A stretch of 64,000 nucleotides of DNA, taken from IMG/VR virus record IMGVR_UViG_2811995317_000003, positions 1 through 64,000 of that record; one strand, given 5' to 3'. The translations under genes and the position numbers were made by a program. Within the stretch, counting starts at the first letter, position 1. Each line of letters opens with the position of its first letter. The notes under the pieces were generated by a model. It saw nothing but the letters and a program-made list of their open reading frames with translations, was not told the DNA's origin and made no database searches. This DNA comes from a virus. Its lineage: Duplodnaviria; Caudoviricetes. This document shows positions 14,744 through 57,683 of the stretch, piece after piece.

Positions 14744-15196
14744 GTGAGCCAACAATTCCACCTCGTTAGCGAAAGCGTCAAGCAGAACGCTATCAACTAC
14801 ATTCGTCAGTTGCCGGTCGACAGCAAGCGCCCGCTGATACTCGACGTCAAAGAGTCGACGCGCACCGCTATTCAAAACCGCAAGATGTGGCCGCTCCTGA
14901 AAGACCTTTCCGACCAGGTTCTCTGGTTCGGCAATAAATATGACTCCGACGACTGGAAAGACCTGATCACCGCGCTGGTGGCAAAAACCAAAAAGCAGGA
15001 ACAGCGAATGGCCCCTGGGCTTGATGGCGGCGTCGTGATGTTCGGCCAGCGCACCAGCAAAATGACCATTCCCCAGATGGTCGAAGTCATTGAGACGATT
15101 TACTGGTTCGGCACCCAGCAGGGCGTCACCTTCAGCGAACAATCCCGCAATGAAATCGAGTGGGCGAAGCGTTGGGGGGAAAGCAATGCGAAATAA
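14744..15196 (+). CDS. ninB: NinB-like recombination protein
   Basis: RTAIQNRKMWPLLKDLSDQVLW, FGQRTSKM. Confidence 0.85.
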   Translation: MSQQFHLVSESVKQNAINYIRQLPVDSKRPLILDVKESTRTAIQNRKMWPLLKDLSDQVLWFGNKYDSDDWKDLITALVAKTKKQEQRMAPGLDGGVVMFGQRTSKMTIPQMVEVIETIYWFGTQQGVTFSEQSRNEIEWAKRWGESNAK

Positions 15197-15485
15197 CTCC
15201 AATCAGCGAACCTACCGCAGCAAAAAATGGCTCGCCGCTGTCGGGCAGATCGAACAGTGCGTGTTATGCGGTTCATGGGGGACGCAGGTTGCGCACCGTA
15301 ACGAAGGCAAAGGCATGGGCCTGAAAGCCGATGATTGCGCCACGGCGGCGATCTGCGTTTGCTGCCACGACAGCATCGACAACGGGAGCAAGCTATCGCG
15401 CGACGAACGTCGCCAGCTGATGGACCGCGCCATCGTTCTGACCGTTATCCAGATCGCCCGCCTTGGGCTGGTGGTGCCAGCATGA
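15186..15485 (+). CDS. Cys-rich nin-region protein (HNH/DUF1364-like)
   Basis: CVLCG...AH...CVCCHDSIDNG. Confidence 0.7.
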   Translation: MRNNSNQRTYRSKKWLAAVGQIEQCVLCGSWGTQVAHRNEGKGMGLKADDCATAAICVCCHDSIDNGSKLSRDERRQLMDRAIVLTVIQIARLGLVVPA

Positions 15486-15964
15486 AAATTGACAAAACTG
15501 GACGATTGCTTAGCGATAACGCACTTAAAAATATGGGTGGCTCTGGGCGCTTCAAGGCTAAGCATGGGATGAAAAACACGCCGGAATACCGAGCGTGGAT
15601 TGATATGAAAAACAGGTGTTCTAATCCGAATGTAAGGTCTTATTCAAATTATGGAGGTAGGGGGATCACTGTCTGTAAAGAGTGGGTAGAGAGTTTTGAA
15701 GAATTCTTCAAATACGTCGGTCCTCGCCCAGATGGTTACAGTCTTGACAGGATTGACACCAATGGGAACTACGAGCCCGGAAACATTAGATGGGTTACGA
15801 ATCGCAGCCAACAAAATAATAAAAGAAATACCGTCTTTGTAATGTTTGATGGTCAAAAAATATCAGCCAGTGAGTATGCGAGAGCTGTAGGCATGAAGCC
15901 GGACACAGTACACGCAAGAATTCGTCGAGGCTTGAAGCTTGATGGGGCGATCATATGCAAGTGA
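15482..15964 (+). CDS. freestanding HNH-type homing endonuclease
   Basis: HG...EYRAWIDMKNRC...YGGRGITVC..W...SLDRIDTNGNYEPGNIRW; AT-rich; absent at the same junction in prophage 2. Confidence 0.85.
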   Translation: MKIDKTGRLLSDNALKNMGGSGRFKAKHGMKNTPEYRAWIDMKNRCSNPNVRSYSNYGGRGITVCKEWVESFEEFFKYVGPRPDGYSLDRIDTNGNYEPGNIRWVTNRSQQNNKRNTVFVMFDGQKISASEYARAVGMKPDTVHARIRRGLKLDGAIICK

Positions 15965-16317
15965 TTTATGAGATTACCCCTGTACCTAAGCCAAGACAAA
16001 CCCGCGCCGACAAATGGAAAACACGGCCAGCGGTCATGCGCTATCGCGCGTTCTGCGATGAAGCACGTCTGCGCAAAATCAATCTCCCTGAGTCCGGCGC
16101 GCATATCACCTTCGTTATGCCAATGCCTCCGAGCTGGAGCAAAAAGAAGCGTGAACAGCTCAACGGCAAGCCGCACCAGTCAAAACCAGACTGCGACAAC
16201 ATGCTTAAAGCACTGATGGATGCCCTGTTTGATGATGATTCCAGTGTCTGGGATTGTCGCATTACAAAGCTATGGGGCGAGAAAGGCCAGATCATCATTC
16301 GGGAGAACGGACAATGA
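15955..16317 (+). CDS. rusA: RusA-like Holliday junction resolvase
   Basis: KPDCDNMLKALMDAL..DDS.VWD. Confidence 0.88.
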   Translation: MQVIYEITPVPKPRQTRADKWKTRPAVMRYRAFCDEARLRKINLPESGAHITFVMPMPPSWSKKKREQLNGKPHQSKPDCDNMLKALMDALFDDDSSVWDCRITKLWGEKGQIIIRENGQ

Positions 16318-16997
16318 CACGCAACGACATTAACAATTACCAGAAAGCGTCTGTTGAGCGTACCAACCCGCAAAACGCCTGGGTGACGCTAGCAGCAGCT
16401 CCACGCAGATCTTACCTGGGGAAATACCGCCGACTTACACCATCGCAAAGCCGTTGGGTTCGTTCGTTGCTGAACCACTGGGGCGGCATGTACGGTGGCA
16501 GTGGAACAGAGCACCTTTCTGGTGGCGGTGGTATGTGGTCAATGATATTGACCGGCTGGACTGGCGAGCAGCAGGAGCGGATCGCTACCGTGCTGTCTGG
16601 TCTGCGTAAAATTGGCTATACCGGCGATGCGTTGTTTGAGCAGGCGAAAGCCATCATCTGGCCGAAGAAATCACTTTCTGACCTGATCGGCAACGCCGGG
16701 GATCAAGAGGAAGCTGCATTCATGGAGGCTATCATCCTGAAGTCCTTCAAGCCGGGGAATCCCGTGTATGAGATAGGGAAGAACTATTACACCTGGAGGA
16801 AAACCATTAATGACATGGCACGGTGGATGCAATATTACTACGCGCCGTTTCTGACCGAAAAGCAATGTATTGACCGCGTGCGCTGGTGTATTGAGTTGTT
16901 TAATTCTGCTGTCTTCTTCACGTTAAAAGATGAATTTGGCTTCGAAAATGCAAAAACTTGCGAAAAAGACTTGAAAACGAGTTTTGAAACTGCATAA
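16314..16997 (+). CDS. late antiterminator Q-like
   Basis: last early gene before late promoter; homologous to 57060-57683. Confidence 0.75.
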   Translation: MTRNDINNYQKASVERTNPQNAWVTLAAAPRRSYLGKYRRLTPSQSRWVRSLLNHWGGMYGGSGTEHLSGGGGMWSMILTGWTGEQQERIATVLSGLRKIGYTGDALFEQAKAIIWPKKSLSDLIGNAGDQEEAAFMEAIILKSFKPGNPVYEIGKNYYTWRKTINDMARWMQYYYAPFLTEKQCIDRVRWCIELFNSAVFFTLKDEFGFENAKTCEKDLKTSFETA

Positions 16998-41719: not shown

Positions 41720-41765
41720 ATTCGTAATGCGAAGGTCGTAGGTTCGACTCCTATTATCGGCACCA
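41720..41765 (+). repeat. att junction: attR of prophage 1 and attL of prophage 2
   Basis: 3' half of thrW: ATTCGTAATGCGAAGGTCGTAGGTTCGACTCCTATTATCGGCACCA. Confidence 0.95.
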
Positions 41766-46095: not shown

Positions 46096-46782
46096 CTATC
46101 TCCACTGTTCCCCGAACGTGAATCCGATCTCCGCCAGCGCCTCGTCCATCTTCTCAATAAACTCCGGCACCATTTCGTTGAAATCGGACATGTACTGCGG
46201 ATCCCGCTCAACGACGACGTGGTGAATACCTTCGCGTTTCATGCGCGGGTCGTAGTTGGCAAAAAACCAGGCGTCTTTCCCGGTCACCCACATGCTGTAC
46301 TGCACCTGGGCCATGTACGCGGACTTGATGGCTTCGAAACCGCCAAGGCGGAATTTCATGAAGTCTCGGGAGGTGAACGGGCATTTCAGTTCGAGGCCGA
46401 AATTATTACTGCAAAGGCCGTCAGGGGAGCACGCGGTGCGCATGCTCTCGTCACGGAACAGGATCGGAGACTCCGTGACTTTCACGTCGGTGGTGAACTC
46501 GAAGAGAGTGCGGGCGTCTTCCTCGTACTGCTTGCCCCAAGCGAGAGCCTTGGCGTTAACCTCTGGCGCCACGCCGGTGCATACCTCGGCGAGCAGCGTG
46601 TGGAAGTAGGACATTTTCATGTCTGTCCATTTGGTGCCAGATCGAGGCTTGGAAATGACGTTGTGAGCGTCAGAGGCAGTAATAACTCCGAGTCTCGCCC
46701 TTGCCCATGTCTCGCTGCCTTGCTCAATTTGTGCAATTGGCCCAAATATTTGCTCAAATTTAATGAGCCACGTGTTATCCAT
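46096..46782 (-). CDS. exo: lambda-type exonuclease (YqaJ family)
   Basis: [27 protein letters not shown]. Confidence 0.93.
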
Positions 46783-47395
46783 ATTTCCTCTCCTTACGGC
46801 AGTTGGCTCTTGGCGGGATGTTTATGCCTCTATTGTTGTAGCCGTGACACCATTTGTGGATGGTTGCTGATTTCACGCCAAAATGATTCGCCGCGGCTCC
46901 GGCGCTTTCAAAACGCAACCCATCAACAAACCAGTAAAACGATGTGCTTCTGTTTTCCGCCTGTTTGGTAACCGTTGCCCATCTGCAATTGTCTTTTGAA
47001 TACGGGCCTTCATTGTTCTTCCGATCTAGCTGATGCTTAGGCGTAGGAGGTGGCCCCATATCTTCAAGAAATAGCTCGAACGTCAGCCACCTTTCGCAGA
47101 TGCCGCGCTTACTGTATTTTTCGAAGTCTTTGTTGTTCGGGTTCGTGCAGCGGTTTTTCATTCCGCTCCAAATCCTGTAAACGCGGGTATTGCGCTGGCC
47201 GTGAGTAGCGTTTTTTCCTGTCATGCATCCGCAGCTGCTTATTGAATTGTTTTTAAGCTGATTTGCGGCTCTATAGCAGGAATTACCGCACACACAAAGG
47301 CATAGATACATCCTTCTACCTCTCAGCATGTGCGAGTATTCTTTGACGGTTAAGTGCCCATATTTTTCACCGGGCATAAGCGAATTGGCGTTCAT
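46775..47395 (-). CDS. freestanding HNH-type homing endonuclease
   Basis: C.C.CG, SCGC, HG...[31 protein letters not shown]; separates recT and exo. Confidence 0.85.
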
Positions 47396-48309
47396 GCTGC
47401 CGCCTTCTTCTTGAGGAAGCCTAGGGCCTTAACTGCCTCGGCTTGGGTAAGCTCGGATGAATCGCGAATATCACGACGGAAAATTTGCGAACAGACTGGG
47501 AGCAGGTTTTCTTCCCATGTCTTATCCATTGCGATAAGGACGTCGTTAATCTCCTTGATAATTTCGTCCCCTGCTGGGGTTACATCGCGTTCTGGCTGGC
47601 GTTCTGCTGAGAAGTTGATACCTTCCTCACCCTCGGTATTAACATGGTCGATGGCGGCGTCCAGGCGCTCACGTCGAGGCCAGTATTTTGCTGCCTGCTT
47701 CACGACCGTCTTGAGGATCATCTGCTCTTCATCGGTGACCCAGGGACACTTCTTGCTGTTGTCAGATTTGAACTTCTTCCACGCTTCAGACCGGTCACGG
47801 ATGGAGTAGATGGCATCGATGCGCATCGTATGAGTGAGGTAATCACCATCGTCAGTTTTTACAGTTACATACGCCCCTACGATGTCTCCGCGCTGCTCTT
47901 CGGTATCAAAATCGTTGTAGATATGGATCGGCGGCTTATCGAGCCCTTCCCGGCGGAACTGGTCGTTTCTTCGAACAATAGCCGACTGGCACCACTTAAT
48001 GGCGCCAGACTGCTGCGCGATATGCATCAGGCCCATGTAACTGATGTCGAGGCAAATAGCCCCTTTACGCGGAACCAGGTAAGCCAGCTTCTGAGCTGGG
48101 TTTAGCGAAATACCGATAGCCGCAACGTTGATGATCGCGTTCTGTGTGCTGGTCTGGTTCTGGAATGCAACTTTCGCGAGGTAGTCGTTGTTCTGAAATA
48201 GCTGGATGGCGAACTGACTTTCCTTCGCCCACACCATCCGCTCGTCAGTGGCCGCCTTAATGAAAAGCGGCTCCTGTTGTTTGACGAAATCAACAAGGGT
48301 TAAGCTCAT
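47392..48309 (-). CDS. RecT/Bet-family single-strand annealing protein
   Basis: GISLNP...[29 protein letters not shown]. Confidence 0.88.
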
Positions 48310-48318
48310 AGTCCCTCC

Positions 48319-48600
48319 TTAAAATGGGCAGATTGGATGAAGGCGATCCCACTCTTCTTCGGCGCGGTCGTAACAGATGCGTGTGACATAGTCGTTATAG
48401 GCTTCCTCTGCCTTTTCACCGACTAGTGCCATTTGCGCTTCTTTTGGGAGAAACAGGCTACTCATTTGCAAAGCATATTTCGGGAACATGGCGATCAGTT
48501 CTTTCGCTCTGTCGTCGATCCACTTCTCTTTCTCGTCGGTGAGCTGCTGCTCAACCCACCGCCGATCTTCGATGCGGTCGTAAGTGAGGTATGCGTTCAT
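48319..48600 (-). CDS. putative Gam-like host nuclease inhibitor
   Basis: MNAY..DRIE...W start and position upstream of recT/exo. Confidence 0.45.
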   Translation of the reverse strand: MNAYLTYDRIEDRRWVEQQLTDEKEKWIDDRAKELIAMFPKYALQMSSLFLPKEAQMALVGEKAEEAYNDYVTRICYDRAEEEWDRLHPICPF

Positions 48601-49106
48601 AAATTCTCCGGTTTTCTTTCTTCATGAACGGCATGTTTGCCGTGCATGCGCTCTCTTGCTGCAACGACAACGGCCCTGGCCTCATTAAGGTCGGTGAAAT
48701 TTCCAAGGTGGTGTTTTTTGCCGTCTATAGAGCAGCGCGCATGCCAGCGTTTATCTTTCTTGTTCCAATAAACGCCTTTTACGCCGCTTGTGTTATTTTT
48801 TGGAGAGAGCTTATTGAGTTGATTAATCCAGTGAGGAACGTCTCTGAGGTTGCATAACCGGTTATCAGTTCTGATGCCGTTTATGTGGTCTATTTCGTGC
48901 TCGGGCCATGAACCATAGGAATAAAACCATGCAAGCCGGTGGCACAAATATCTTTCGTGGTCGATTGAGATACGAAGATAGCCAAAGGGATTTAATGATC
49001 CGGCTATAGTTCCAGAAACCATTCCACCGGCTGTTTTGAGCCTGGTGAAGATTCCTGTCTCTGCATCGTAGTGAAACAATTCCTTTAACCTCTGAATTGA
49101 AAGCAT
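48597..49106 (-). CDS. HNH endonuclease with C-terminal AP2-like domain
   Basis: HRLAW, IDHINGIRTDNRLCNLR, NTSGVKGV.W. Confidence 0.9.
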   Translation of the reverse strand: MLSIQRLKELFHYDAETGIFTRLKTAGGMVSGTIAGSLNPFGYLRISIDHERYLCHRLAWFYSYGSWPEHEIDHINGIRTDNRLCNLRDVPHWINQLNKLSPKNNTSGVKGVYWNKKDKRWHARCSIDGKKHHLGNFTDLNEARAVVVAARERMHGKHAVHEERKPENL

Positions 49107-55919: not shown

Positions 55920-56194
55920 ATGTGAAAAATTATCTCAGCAATTTAGCCAGCATGCTTCAGGGGATTGCAGGTGTCATTTCAGACGGCGAGCGGGTGCAGA
56001 AAGAGTGCCCTGCGCACTTAAAGTCAGCACTACTCGAGGCTTCTCACGCGCTAGATGGTCAATCGGTCAGGGTCAATTATCCGCCTAATGGAAAGCCTGA
56101 AATTGTTAATGCCCGCGGACACCATCGACCGCTTACCTTCCGGGAACGAGTGGCAATCCGCTTACTTGGTGGCAGGACGGAGATTCGCCCATGA
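55916..56194 (+). CDS. hypothetical protein
   Basis: 92 aa, coupled. Confidence 0.6.
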   Translation: MNVKNYLSNLASMLQGIAGVISDGERVQKECPAHLKSALLEASHALDGQSVRVNYPPNGKPEIVNARGHHRPLTFRERVAIRLLGGRTEIRP

Positions 56195-56511
56195 GCACTA
56201 TTACCAGAGAACTGGCAAAGCTGTTCAGAAAAATTACGAATTCTGAAATTGATGCGGAGGGTAACGCTCATGTTGTTTTATCTCCTGCTGATAGCCTCCT
56301 GATTAATAATGCGCGTATCGCGCTGGCATCGCTCGAAGCGGAGCCTGTGGCGTGGCTGCTGTCAGGCGGCGGCGCAAAAAACAACGTCAGCTTCGATAGT
56401 GGCAATGCTTATGCCGACCCGCTGCGAGAAGTAACGCCGCTTTACACCGCCTCGCCACCGCTGCTATCTGCATCACCTGTCATTCAGAGATCGATAACGG
56501 AAATGGATTGA
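56191..56511 (+). pseudogene. Eaa-like gene truncated by deletion
   Basis: MSTITRE...LASLEAEPVAW...PLYT, then runs out of frame into the next fragment. Confidence 0.6.
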
Positions 56512-56600
56512 GCCGTGACGAACGCCGCCAGTTAATGGACCGCGCCATTGTACTGACCGTTATCCAGATTGCCCGTCGTGGCTTGGTGGTGCCCGCATGA
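56454..56600 (+). pseudogene. 3' fragment of the Cys-rich nin-region gene
   Basis: ATAAICITCHSEIDNG...RQLMDRAIVLTVIQIARRGLVVPA matches C-terminus of 15186-15485; no start codon. Confidence 0.8.
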
Positions 56601-56956
56601 AAATCTACGACATAACACCAATCGGAAAGCCTCGCATGACCCGCGCGGATAAGTGGAAGCAGCGCCCACCTGTAATGCGTTATCGCGCTTTTTGCGATGA
56701 GGTCCGCCTGCGCAAGCTGACCATGCATGAATCAGGATCACATGTGACATTCGTCCTACCAATGCCACCAAGCTGGAGTAAGAAGAAACGAGCGGAGTTC
56801 GCCGGGAAGCCCCACCAGGCCAAGCCAGACTGCGACAACATGCTGAAGGCCCTGATGGATGCGCTTTATGAGGATGATGCTCACATCTGGGATTGCCGCA
56901 TCACAAAGGTCTGGGGAGAGAAGGGGCAGATCATCATCGGAGAGTGCGCGCCGTGA
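56597..56956 (+). CDS. rusA: RusA-like resolvase
   Basis: KPDCDNMLKALMDAL. Confidence 0.88.
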   Translation: MKIYDITPIGKPRMTRADKWKQRPPVMRYRAFCDEVRLRKLTMHESGSHVTFVLPMPPSWSKKKRAEFAGKPHQAKPDCDNMLKALMDALYEDDAHIWDCRITKVWGEKGQIIIGECAP

Positions 56957-57063
56957 CCAGAGACGAGATAACCCGGTACCAGGCAGAAAGCGTTAAGCGC
57001 GCCAGCCTACCGCCAGTAGCAAAGCACAGCCAGACCAAACAACCTAAGAAGGAAGCAGCATGA
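56953..57063 (+). CDS. 36-aa coupled peptide
   Basis: GTGA and ATGA overlaps; resembles first 16 aa of prophage 1 Q. Confidence 0.45.
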   Translation: MTRDEITRYQAESVKRASLPPVAKHSQTKQPKKEAA

Positions 57064-57683
57064 GAAAGCTCACACCAATTTACTCCATGGTCAACTTTGT
57101 CGATGACGCTCACTTCCGCCGTGTCTGGAAGCATCCCAAAAAGACCATAACCCCAAAGCAACGGGCATGGGTGCAGTACATGCTGACTGTGTGGGGTCGC
57201 ATTAACCGTGGCGATGATTCTCCTGCCGGTGCCATTAACGTCATTGGCCGATTGATGATCCGCAGCCAATGGAGTCCTGATATGGGTGGACACATCGAGA
57301 GGATGGTCAACTGGCTTTATAGCGATGAAGGAGGGGCGCTGAGAGGTGAGGCGCTTTATAAAAAAGCTCGCGAACTGGTTATCCCTCAGTCATCAGCCAG
57401 CAACATCATCGCTCTCGCCAAAGAATCAGATGATGCCGCATTCGTAGAAAAAGTGATGGTTAAGCTGTTTCACCGGGAAAGCCCAGTCCGCGATTATGCA
57501 ATTAAACGTTATTGTGAGCGCAACTGCACTCAACATATCGCTCAGGCAATGAGCAGAGTAACCGGCGTGGATGTGCAGCAGTGCCGCCGCCGGGTCGTGT
57601 GGTGCGAGAAGGTTTTTGAATCAGAACTCTTTTATGCCTTACAACGTGAGATGGAGAAAGAAAACGAACTTCAGGCCACTTAA
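57060..57683 (+). CDS. late antiterminator Q-like
   Basis: position before pR'; homologous to 16314-16997. Confidence 0.75.
   Translation: MRKLTPIYSMVNFVDDAHFRRVWKHPKKTITPKQRAWVQYMLTVWGRINRGDDSPAGAINVIGRLMIRSQWSPDMGGHIERMVNWLYSDEGGALRGEALYKKARELVIPQSSASNIIALAKESDDAAFVEKVMVKLFHRESPVRDYAIKRYCERNCTQHIAQAMSRVTGVDVQQCRRRVVWCEKVFESELFYALQREMEKENELQAT

What the first reader, a model, noticed from the sequence alone, without database searches (positions are those of the whole stretch)
15470..15990. Prophage 1 homing endonuclease has its empty target junction in prophage 2
In prophage 2 the Cys-rich gene runs straight into rusA (GTGGTGCCCGC-ATGAAAAT-CTAC, about 56586-56608). In prophage 1 the same junction (GTGGTGCCAGC-ATGAAAAT-TGAC) starts the HNH gene, which has captured rusA's coupled start, and rusA has a different N-terminus (MQVIYEITPVP versus MKIYDITPIG). 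This is the pattern of intron-less homing with co-conversion. On induction this enzyme may cut the neighbouring prophage.
Basis: partly seen in the sequence, partly recalled or inferred. Interest (0 to 1): 0.7.

Follow-up and report, generated by a model that had tools for sequence, protein, structure and literature searches.

The report
Mobile endonuclease gene at rusA start
A small selfish nuclease-type gene has inserted itself at the start of the rusA gene in one of two tandem prophages. Comparison with about 90 related phages shows that it spreads as a sharply bounded cassette, but whether it can cut the neighbouring prophage remains untested.

Summary
The junction motif is at 15471-15493 and 56586-56608, a 160-aa ORF (15482-15964) lies between the Cys-rich ybcO-like gene and rusA in prophage 1, and the two RusA N-termini differ as stated.

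Prophage 2 is not the best comparator. Citrobacter phage Omnitron and several E. coli prophages are 96-99% identical to prophage 1 and lack the ORF. Relative to them, 15491-15999 is an insertion plus a replacement of rusA codons 3-14 (16 of 36 nt changed).

- This 518-nt cassette has no differences among 8 loci whose flanks differ by 3-14%.
- The recoded rusA start was found only together with the gene.
- A second lineage of the gene (74% aa identity) sits at the same rusA position in another phage backbone, which also has empty alleles.
- The gene is under purifying selection (dN/dS about 0.05).

So it is a free-standing homing-endonuclease cassette. Three corrections apply:

- The protein is not a canonical HNH. 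An invariant Arg replaces the catalytic His and a loop Tyr is invariant, as in PacI.
- Prophage 2's Cys-rich gene is only a 3' remnant.
- Prophage 2's site belongs to a haplotype never seen occupied (0 of 37).

No cleavage has been shown. It is a new member of a known kind, of moderate interest.

The parts
15186..15485 (+). Cys-rich ybcO-like (DUF1364) gene of prophage 1, 99 aa. Its stop overlaps the endonuclease start (ATGA).
   Evidence: Pfam YbcO 25.3 bits, below cut-off. phrog_131 E 8e-32. RefSeq names the E. coli orthologue a DUF1364 family protein.
15482..15964 (+). Free-standing homing-endonuclease-type gene, 160 aa. It has an N-terminal HNH-like (PacI-like) domain at about residues 28-117 and a C-terminal helix-turn-helix at 118-160.
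   Evidence: phrog_3377 E 4e-49. AlphaFold pLDDT 86. PacI Z 6.3; I-TevI and I-HmuI DNA-binding domains Z 4.1 and 3.5. Absent from near-identical phages. GC 43.9% against 52-60% in the flanks.
15482..15490 (+). Left junction: ATGAAAATT, shared with the rusA start of empty alleles. The first cassette-specific base is 15491.
   Evidence: In lineage 2 the start codon is GTG in both the empty and the occupied alleles.
15491..15999 (+). Cassette-specific DNA relative to Omnitron-type empty alleles. It comprises the gene body plus the replaced rusA codons.
   Evidence: BLAST breakpoints. 0 of 518 nt differ among 8 loci whose flanks differ by 3-14%.
15955..15999 (+). Recoded rusA 5' end (15 codons, MQVIYEITPVPKPRQ). 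It differs at 16 of 36 aligned nt from the empty allele and is the presumed immunity determinant or co-converted segment.
   Evidence: An exact-match scan found it only in contigs that carry the gene, 5 of 5.
15955..16317 (+). rusA of prophage 1 (120 aa). From codon 16 onward the protein is identical to Omnitron RusA.
   Evidence: Pfam RusA E 9.5e-16.
56453..56600 (+). 3' remnant of the ybcO-like gene in prophage 2 (equivalent to residues 52-99, no start codon).
56586..56638 (+). Unoccupied junction in prophage 2: the end of the ybcO remnant plus the first 14 codons of rusA. It is homologous to the empty site of Omnitron-type phages.
   Evidence: 7 of 42 nt differ from the Omnitron site, all at third codon positions.
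56597..56956 (+). rusA of prophage 2 (119 aa), 77% aa identity to prophage 1 RusA.
41720..41765 (+). Internal att junction (tRNA-Thr 3' core copy) between the two tandem prophages.
   Evidence: 44 of 46 identical to 1396-1441.

Best explanation
Window 15482-15964 is a free-standing homing-endonuclease gene that occupies the first codons of rusA in the nin region of a lambdoid prophage.

What is shown:
- Compared with near-identical phages that lack it, the element is a 509-nt block (15491-15999).
- It begins just after rusA's own start codon and its first two and a half codons, so the endonuclease uses rusA's translationally coupled start.
- It ends by supplying a new overlapping start and 12 recoded codons for rusA, so rusA stays intact.
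- The block travels as a unit between related phages independently of its flanks.
- It is under purifying selection.
- A diverged sister lineage sits at exactly the same rusA position in another phage backbone.

What is inferred:
- The protein binds the ybcO/rusA junction and rusA codons 1-14 of phages that lack the gene. Binding would use its C-terminal helix-turn-helix and its HNH-like domain.
- It nicks or cuts there, using Asp89 and Asn113 for the metal ion. Invariant Tyr97 in the loop between the two strands would replace the missing histidine, as in PacI.
- Recombinational repair from the occupied allele, in a co-infected or co-induced cell, then copies the cassette in.
- The occupied allele is immune because the site is split and 16 of 36 nt are changed.

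Prophage 2 carries a homologous unoccupied site and could be a target on induction of prophage 1. I put that at about 0.3. The confidence of 0.7 refers to the homing-cassette reading, not to cleavage of prophage 2.
For: 1. Empty alleles in near-isogenic backbones. Omnitron is 95.5% and 98.7% identical on either side, with 30 nt in place of 506 nt. E. coli EC2001, TOK-001 and 730V1 lack the gene, while ET791 and ET846 carry it.
2. No fixed difference separates occupied from empty Omnitron-type alleles in -740 to +1000 nt, apart from the cassette.
3. The cassette has 0 differences in 518 nt among 8 loci. Their flanks differ at 41 of 1242 nt up to 107 of 1242 nt. The Poisson chance of zero differences is about 4e-8 to 4e-20.
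4. A different allele of the gene (55 of 473 nt changed, dN/dS 0.05) sits in the same backbone in Apirhabdus.
5. The recoded rusA 5' end was found only together with the gene, against 35 empty sites in IMG/VR.
6. In lineage 2 (74% aa identity) the gene lies directly upstream of a 70%-identical rusA, behind a different upstream gene. That backbone has 7 occupied, 37 empty and 1 unclassifiable contig. The start codon is GTG, as in the local rusA, and the first 14 rusA codons are again replaced.
7. In 122 homologues D/E89, R90, Y97, N101 and N113 are invariant or nearly so. Y97 lies in the loop between the two predicted strands. The best fold match is PacI, at Z 6.3 and rmsd 2.4 A over 75 residues. 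The C-terminal part resembles the DNA-binding domains of I-TevI and I-HmuI.
8. In PacI a loop tyrosine replaces the histidine (PMC5714182, PMC4081073).
9. The gene's GC content is 43.9% against 52-60% for its neighbours.
Against: - No cleavage has been shown for this protein. I found no characterised member of this Arg-for-His family.
- The Pfam HNH_3 score is below threshold, and the residue that aligns with the catalytic His is Arg in all 122 sequences.
- The PacI match is middling (Z 6.3). PacI's two Cys4 zinc sites have no counterpart here; only C46, C65 and H28 are conserved.
- In T-even phages, free-standing endonucleases often cut hundreds of bases from their gene (PMC2988022). The target could therefore lie outside the 1.7 kb compared.
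- Recombination at gene boundaries is common among lambdoid phages and could move a cassette without a nuclease.
Confidence: 0.7

Rival explanations
1. The prophage 2 junction (56586-56638) is a cleavable target, so induction of prophage 1 cuts the neighbouring prophage and may convert it.
For: - The site is homologous and unoccupied.
- RusA residues 1-14 are identical to those of the Omnitron-type empty allele, and all 7 of 42 nucleotide differences are at third codon positions. Homing endonucleases that target coding sequence often tolerate such changes (general knowledge).
- Both prophages lie in one chromosome.
Against: - None of 26 prophage-2-type alleles in the first sample carried the gene, against 9 of 23 Omnitron-type alleles. 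Fisher p = 4e-4, but the samples are not phylogenetically independent. None of 11 further E. coli alleles carried it either.
- Homology for repair is poor: 148 nt at about 87% on the left and 75% on the right.
- Activity of the enzyme is itself unproven.
Confidence: 0.3
2. The protein is a catalytically dead, HNH-derived DNA-binding protein (a regulator or accessory 'moron'). In this reading the cassette moves only by ordinary homologous or illegitimate recombination between mosaic lambdoid phages, with no homing.
For: - Arg replaces the general-base His throughout the family.
- RefSeq names it 'AsnC family protein'.
- His-Me finger domains that lost catalysis but kept DNA binding are known, for example SMAD MH1 (PMC5714182).
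Against: - The putative metal ligands D/E89 and N113 and the loop Tyr97 are invariant or nearly so in 122 sequences. Constraint for DNA binding alone would not be expected to keep them.
- The cassette is identical across diverged flanks and has edges sharp to within about 10-40 nt.
- Two diverged lineages sit at the same rusA codon behind different upstream genes.
- The adjacent target-like segment is recoded in both lineages.
- The AsnC match is 23 residues at 21.3 bits, below the cut-off of 27, and there is no ligand-binding domain.
Confidence: 0.15
3. The polymorphism is a deletion. In this reading the gene-bearing form is ancestral and the empty alleles lost the gene.
For: Presence/absence alone does not give a direction.
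Against: - The empty form of the RusA N-terminus (MKIYDITPIGKPRM) is shared by distant rusA lineages, including prophage 2 at 75% nt identity.
- A deletion could not regenerate that sequence from the recoded one.
- The gene's GC content is about 10 points below its neighbours.
- The cassette shows no diversity while its flanks are diverse.
Confidence: 0.03

Closest known systems
Free-standing homing endonucleases of T-even phages (SegF, SegG, MobE): 'intronless homing' (PMC2988022; PMC2790892)
   Same: - A stand-alone endonuclease gene lies between or at the edge of conserved genes.
- Close relatives show presence/absence of the gene.
- Flanking sequence moves with the gene.
- The architecture is a nuclease domain plus a separate DNA-binding domain.
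   Different: - This one is in a temperate lambdoid prophage, not a T-even phage.
- It is inserted inside the first codons of the target gene, re-uses that gene's start and provides a new one.
- The co-transferred tract is only 45 nt.
- The presumed target abuts the insertion point, rather than lying hundreds of bases away.
- Activity has not been tested.
I-HmuI (HNH homing endonuclease of Bacillus phage SPO1; PDB 1u3e)
   Same: - A beta-beta-alpha core is followed by a C-terminal helix-turn-helix.
- I-HmuI is the top Foldseek hit (E 0.05), and its C-terminal part matches at Z 3.5.
- The Asp before the first-strand catalytic position and the Asn on the helix appear to be kept.
   Different: - The general-base His is Arg here.
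- This gene is not intron-encoded.
- The N-terminal helical region (residues 28-80) with invariant W39, R45, C46, Y57, R60 and W68 has no counterpart in I-HmuI.
R.PacI, rare-cutting HNH restriction endonuclease (PDB 3ldy, 3m7k; group 20 of PMC5714182)
   Same: - It is the best structural match (Z 6.3, rmsd 2.4 A, 75 residues).
- It lacks the catalytic His and uses a tyrosine from the loop between the strands (PMC5714182, PMC4081073).
- This family has an invariant Tyr97 in that loop.
   Different: - There is no detectable sequence similarity.
- PacI has two Cys4 zinc sites and acts as a homodimer on an 8-bp palindrome.
- This family has only two conserved Cys and carries a C-terminal HTH.
PHROG 3377 / 374 / 8790 'HNH endonuclease' phage proteins
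   Same: - The match is strong (E 4e-49 to 2e-37).
- There are more than 3200 homologues.
- tblastn finds matches in 514 phage records from Staphylococcus, Mycobacterium, Pseudomonas (D3 orf78 next to ninB), Acinetobacter and others.
   Different: Those names are annotations, and I found no tested member. This copy is unusual in having clear empty alleles and a defined cassette.

Membership tests
Free-standing homing endonuclease gene (intronless homing) | Presence/absence of the gene at one site in otherwise near-identical genomes | tested here: met
   Omnitron and E. coli prophages compared with the window, ET791 and ET846. In lineage 2, 7 contigs are occupied and 37 are empty.
Free-standing homing endonuclease gene (intronless homing) | The gene spreads horizontally with a short tract of flanking sequence, independently of the backbone | tested here: met
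   0 of 518 nt differ across 8 loci whose flanks differ by 3-14%. The recoded 45 nt were found only with the gene. A second allele sits in the same backbone.
Free-standing homing endonuclease gene (intronless homing) | The occupied allele differs from the empty allele at the presumed recognition site (self-immunity) | tested here: met
   16 of 36 nt differ next to the insert, and there is no other fixed difference in -740 to +1000 nt. That this segment is the recognition site is an inference.
Free-standing homing endonuclease gene (intronless homing) | Site-specific cleavage of the empty allele and super-Mendelian inheritance in crosses | not testable with these tools
   This needs protein biochemistry and phage crosses.
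Canonical HNH / His-Me finger (Pfam HNH_3, PF13392) | Score above the curated threshold | tested here: not met
   12.2 bits against a cut-off of 24.8, E 0.15.
Canonical HNH / His-Me finger (Pfam HNH_3, PF13392) | General-base histidine at the end of the first strand | tested here: not met
   R90 is present in 122 of 122 sequences. 'LDRID' aligns with 'IDHIN' of the canonical HNH_3 protein at 48597-49106 (weak alignment).
Canonical HNH / His-Me finger (Pfam HNH_3, PF13392) | Beta-beta-alpha core with Asp and Asn metal ligands | tested here: inconclusive
   The model predicts strands 86-90 and 102-106 and helix 107-112. D/E89 is kept in 121 of 122 sequences and N113 in 121 of 122. HNH folds top both structure searches but with weak scores.
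PacI-like tyrosine-dependent His-Me finger (group 20, PMC5714182) | Tyrosine in the loop between the two strands, replacing His | tested here: inconclusive
   Y97 is invariant and lies in the 91-101 loop. Superposition on PacI's catalytic Tyr was not checked.
PacI-like tyrosine-dependent His-Me finger (group 20, PMC5714182) | Two Cys4 zinc sites and detectable sequence similarity to PacI | tested here: not met
   Only C46 and C65 (plus H28) are conserved. A profile search of PDB sequences does not find PacI even at E 10.
AsnC family transcription regulator (the RefSeq name of the E. coli orthologue) | AsnC-type HTH above threshold plus a ligand-binding (RAM) domain | tested here: not met
   HTH_AsnC-type scores 21.3 bits against a cut-off of 27 and covers 23 residues only. 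No second domain is present.
PHROG 3377 (phage 'HNH endonuclease') | Profile match over most of the protein | tested here: met
   E 4.1e-49, residues 25-157.

The most novel reading that the evidence does not exclude
The large phage protein family marked by an invariant Asp-Arg ... Tyr ... Asn ... Asn pattern has more than 3200 homologues and 514 phage records, all annotated 'HNH endonuclease' by similarity. It may be an uncharacterised class of histidine-less, tyrosine-dependent homing endonucleases related in mechanism to PacI. This rusA cassette, with its near-isogenic empty alleles, would be the first natural system in which its target and homing can be defined. In addition, the tandem double lysogen would be a case where one resident prophage can convert or damage its neighbour on induction.
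Probability: 0.3. Interest if true: 0.65.

Novelty: new member of a known kind. Interest (0 to 1): 0.45.

Why it matters
Homing endonucleases shape phage genomes and are sources of rare-cutting enzymes. Well-documented cases are mostly from T-even and Bacillus phages. Here a temperate lambdoid prophage offers an unusually clean natural experiment:

- The cassette is defined to the base.
- There are many occupied and empty alleles.
- A recoded 45-nt segment points to the recognition site.
- A sister lineage sits at the same position.

The protein belongs to a very large family that carries the name 'HNH endonuclease' but lacks the defining histidine. Showing that it cuts, and how, would either validate or correct thousands of annotations. 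It would also test whether the tyrosine chemistry seen in PacI is widespread. The question about the neighbouring prophage bears on how co-resident prophages compete.

Tried and rejected
The contexts of the 58-66% identical homologues (P0005, P0007, P0009, P0010, P0012) could therefore not be read. It remains open whether that whole clade, whose members all start MKID, is tied to rusA.
- The global MAFFT alignment of the two prophage regions mishandled the insertion. It was replaced by BLAST and anchored alignments.
- Sequence searches of the PDB with the family profile gave only chance hits.
- Foldseek against the PDB gave no hit at E <= 0.001.
- A search of 401 genomes of the order of the Apirhabdus host found only 4 with a relative and none close.
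- Sequencing runs: the P1 region was found only in the run that is probably the source of this DNA. Two RNA runs of the same species label had no reads on it, so they give no test of expression. A third DNA run did not hold it.
- The PacI paper itself (PMC2886031) is not held, so PacI chemistry is cited from two reviews.
- I considered and rejected the ideas that the gene is an AsnC-type regulator or a terminase-associated HNH. It lies in the nin region, far from the packaging genes.
- No complex prediction was run, because no claim of protein-protein binding is made.

Full report
**Setting**

The window is part of an 87-kb IMG/VR provirus record. It holds two lambdoid prophages in tandem at a tRNA-Thr gene. 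The 46-nt 3' part of the tRNA (1396-1441) recurs at 41720-41765 with 44 of 46 identical.

Both prophages have a nin-type region ending in rusA and a Q-like antiterminator gene:
- Prophage 1: ninB 14744-15196, ybcO-like Cys-rich gene 15186-15485, a 160-aa ORF 15482-15964, rusA 15955-16317, Q-like gene 16314-16997.
- Prophage 2: rusA 56597-956 and Q-like gene 57060-57683.

**The observation**

It is part of real homology: 91 nt at 87% identity, then 299 nt at 75% in rusA. In prophage 1 the ATG that opens rusA in prophage 2 opens the 160-aa ORF instead. rusA then starts 473 nt later with a different N-terminus.

One correction is needed. In prophage 2 the Cys-rich gene is only a remnant equal to residues 52-99, with no start codon. 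All 35 related IMG/VR loci keep at least 90 of its 99 residues. Relatives carry about 2.5 kb more between the upstream ORF and this point.

**A better empty site**

Citrobacter phage Omnitron (CP115737.1, L001) matches prophage 1 at 95.5% over 1494 nt on the left and 98.7% over 1501 nt on the right. It has 30 nt where prophage 1 has 506 nt.

Read base by base, the two agree through ATGAAAATT (15482-15490) and again from 16000 onward. Omnitron RusA starts MKIYDITPIGKPRM, like prophage 2. From codon 16 onward, prophage 1 RusA is identical to Omnitron's.

So the element is 15491-15999. It comprises the body of the ORF, a new rusA start that overlaps the ORF's stop, and 12 replaced rusA codons that differ at 16 of 36 nt.

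E. coli complete genomes show both states in the same backbone. ET791 and ET846 carry the gene. EC2001, TOK-001, 730V1, LHM10-1 and CP52E lack it.

**Evidence that the block moves on its own**

- Across the window, ET791, ET846 and five IMG/VR contigs, the 518 nt from the ORF's ATG to the end of the recoded rusA codons show no difference at all. The adjacent ybcO, rusA and Q sequences differ at up to 34 of 250, 28 of 315 and 50 of 677 positions. With flank divergence of 3.3-8.6%, one would expect 17-45 differences in 518 nt.
- The nearest flank polymorphisms among occupied alleles lie about 40 nt to the left and 8 nt to the right of the block.
- In Apirhabdus apintestini the same backbone carries a different allele of the gene. 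It has 55 of 473 nt changed, 43 of them synonymous, giving dN/dS 0.05.
- An exact-match scan of IMG/VR found the recoded rusA start only in the five contigs that carry the gene. The empty-site pattern occurs in 35 contigs.
- Between occupied and empty Omnitron-type alleles there is no fixed difference from -740 to +1000 nt other than the block. Between-group divergence equals within-group divergence.
- The gene's GC content is 43.9% (GC3 44.7%). Its neighbours are at 52-60% (GC3 58-73%).

**A second lineage at the same position**

Seven IMG/VR contigs carry a gene 74% identical at the protein level, directly upstream of a rusA that is 70% identical, with the same overlap. The upstream gene there is unrelated to ybcO.

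A scan with the upstream sequence of that backbone found 45 contigs: 7 occupied, 37 empty and 1 cut too short to classify. There the empty rusA starts with GTG (VKTYNITPMGKPRM), and the endonuclease gene also starts with GTG. The occupied rusA again begins MQMIYDITPVAKPRQ, with 17 of 36 nt changed.

Two conclusions follow.
- The association is with the rusA 5' end, not with ybcO.

Within lineage 2 the gene is polymorphic, with dN/dS 0.06-0.14.

**What the protein is**

It matches phage families annotated 'HNH endonuclease' strongly (phrog_3377, E 4e-49). It has more than 3200 homologues, and tblastn finds matches in 514 phage records across many hosts.

It does not meet Pfam HNH_3 (12.2 bits). 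In 122 aligned homologues the conservation is as follows:
- The position that aligns with the catalytic His is always Arg (R90).
- D/E89 and N113 are kept in 121 of 122 sequences.
- N101 and Y97 are invariant.
- So are several residues of the N-terminal helical part (W39, R45, C46, Y57, R60, W68).

The AlphaFold model (pLDDT 86) has strands at 86-90 and 102-106 followed by a helix at 107-112. That is a beta-beta-alpha core, with Y97 in the connecting loop.

The best structural match is the HNH restriction enzyme PacI (Z 6.3, rmsd 2.4 A, 75 residues). Residues 118-160 resemble the helix-turn-helix DNA-binding domains of I-TevI (Z 4.1) and I-HmuI (Z 3.5). I-HmuI is also the top Foldseek hit, at E 0.05. 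These scores are modest.

PacI is the documented case of an HNH nuclease in which the histidine is absent. A tyrosine from the same loop takes its role, and an Asp and an Asn hold the metal (PMC5714182; PMC4081073). The conservation pattern here fits that chemistry better than it fits loss of function. This is inference: PacI's zinc sites are not conserved here, and there is no sequence similarity.

**Mechanism proposed**

Shown:
- a precisely bounded cassette at rusA codon 3;
- rusA kept intact through an overlapping new start;
- independent horizontal spread;
- purifying selection;
- recurrence at the same site in a second lineage.

Inferred:
- The protein recognises the rusA start region of empty alleles and nicks or cuts there.
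- Repair from an occupied genome during co-infection or co-induction copies in the cassette with its 45-nt recoded tract.
- The split and recoded site protects the carrier.

Because the only consistent difference between carriers and non-carriers within 1.7 kb is this segment, the discriminating part of the target should lie there. The caveat is that T-even free-standing enzymes can cut far from their genes (PMC2988022).

**Prophage 2 as a target**

Its 42-nt site encodes the same 14 residues as the Omnitron-type site and differs at 7 third-codon positions. That is compatible with recognition.

Three things count against it.
- All nine occupied alleles of lineage 1 have Omnitron-type flanks. 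None of 26 prophage-2-type alleles is occupied (p = 4e-4, samples not independent). Nor are 11 more in E. coli complete genomes.
- Homology available for repair is short and diverged.
- Co-residence without conversion says little either way. The nin region is presumably silent in a lysogen, as in other lambdoid prophages (general knowledge; not tested here).

I put cleavage of prophage 2 at about 0.3.

**Verdict**

It is a new, unusually well delimited member of a known kind of element. Its interest is moderate and would rise if the histidine-less family proves to be an active, tyrosine-dependent nuclease class.

Noticed in passing
window 46775-47395 (- strand): Prophage 2 has its own member of the same Arg-for-His family (206 aa, 38% identical, motif QLDRKNN...Y...N). 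It is wedged between recT (47392-48309) and a YqaJ-type exonuclease gene (46096-46782). This is another likely free-standing homing-endonuclease insertion.
   Followed up: partly
window 48597-49106 (- strand): A canonical HNH_3 plus AP2-domain protein (169 aa, HNH_3 E 4e-13, with the catalytic His present) lies just upstream of the recT module of prophage 2. The recombination module therefore holds two endonuclease-type genes.
   Followed up: partly
window 56191-56600: Prophage 2 has lost about 2.5 kb of its nin region compared with relatives (L137, L129). The deletion joins ORF 56191-56511 to the 3' half of the ybcO-like gene. In L129 the two matching pieces overlap by 18 nt of the query, which suggests a microhomology junction.
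   Followed up: partly
L023 913-1494 (E. coli ET846): A NUMOD4 + HNH_3 + I-HmuI-NUMOD-like gene sits between the ninB-position gene and the ybcO-like gene in a prophage that also carries the rusA cassette. This part of the nin region collects endonuclease genes.
   Followed up: no
L002 2264-3004 and 3833-4511 (Apirhabdus apintestini): In this prophage ninB and the ybcO-like gene read as one 246-aa ORF, and the Q-like gene is split into three frames. The prophage looks to be decaying, although the endonuclease gene is intact.
   Followed up: no
L180 (IMG/VR lineage-2 backbone): One empty allele has a rusA start that encodes ...KPRQT, as the occupied alleles do, rather than ...KPRMT. It could be a partial conversion tract or a footprint after loss of the gene.
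   Followed up: no
family alignment, window protein residues 28, 46, 65: H28, C46 and C65 are almost invariant in the family and could form a three-ligand metal site in the N-terminal helical part. No fourth conserved ligand was seen.
   Followed up: no
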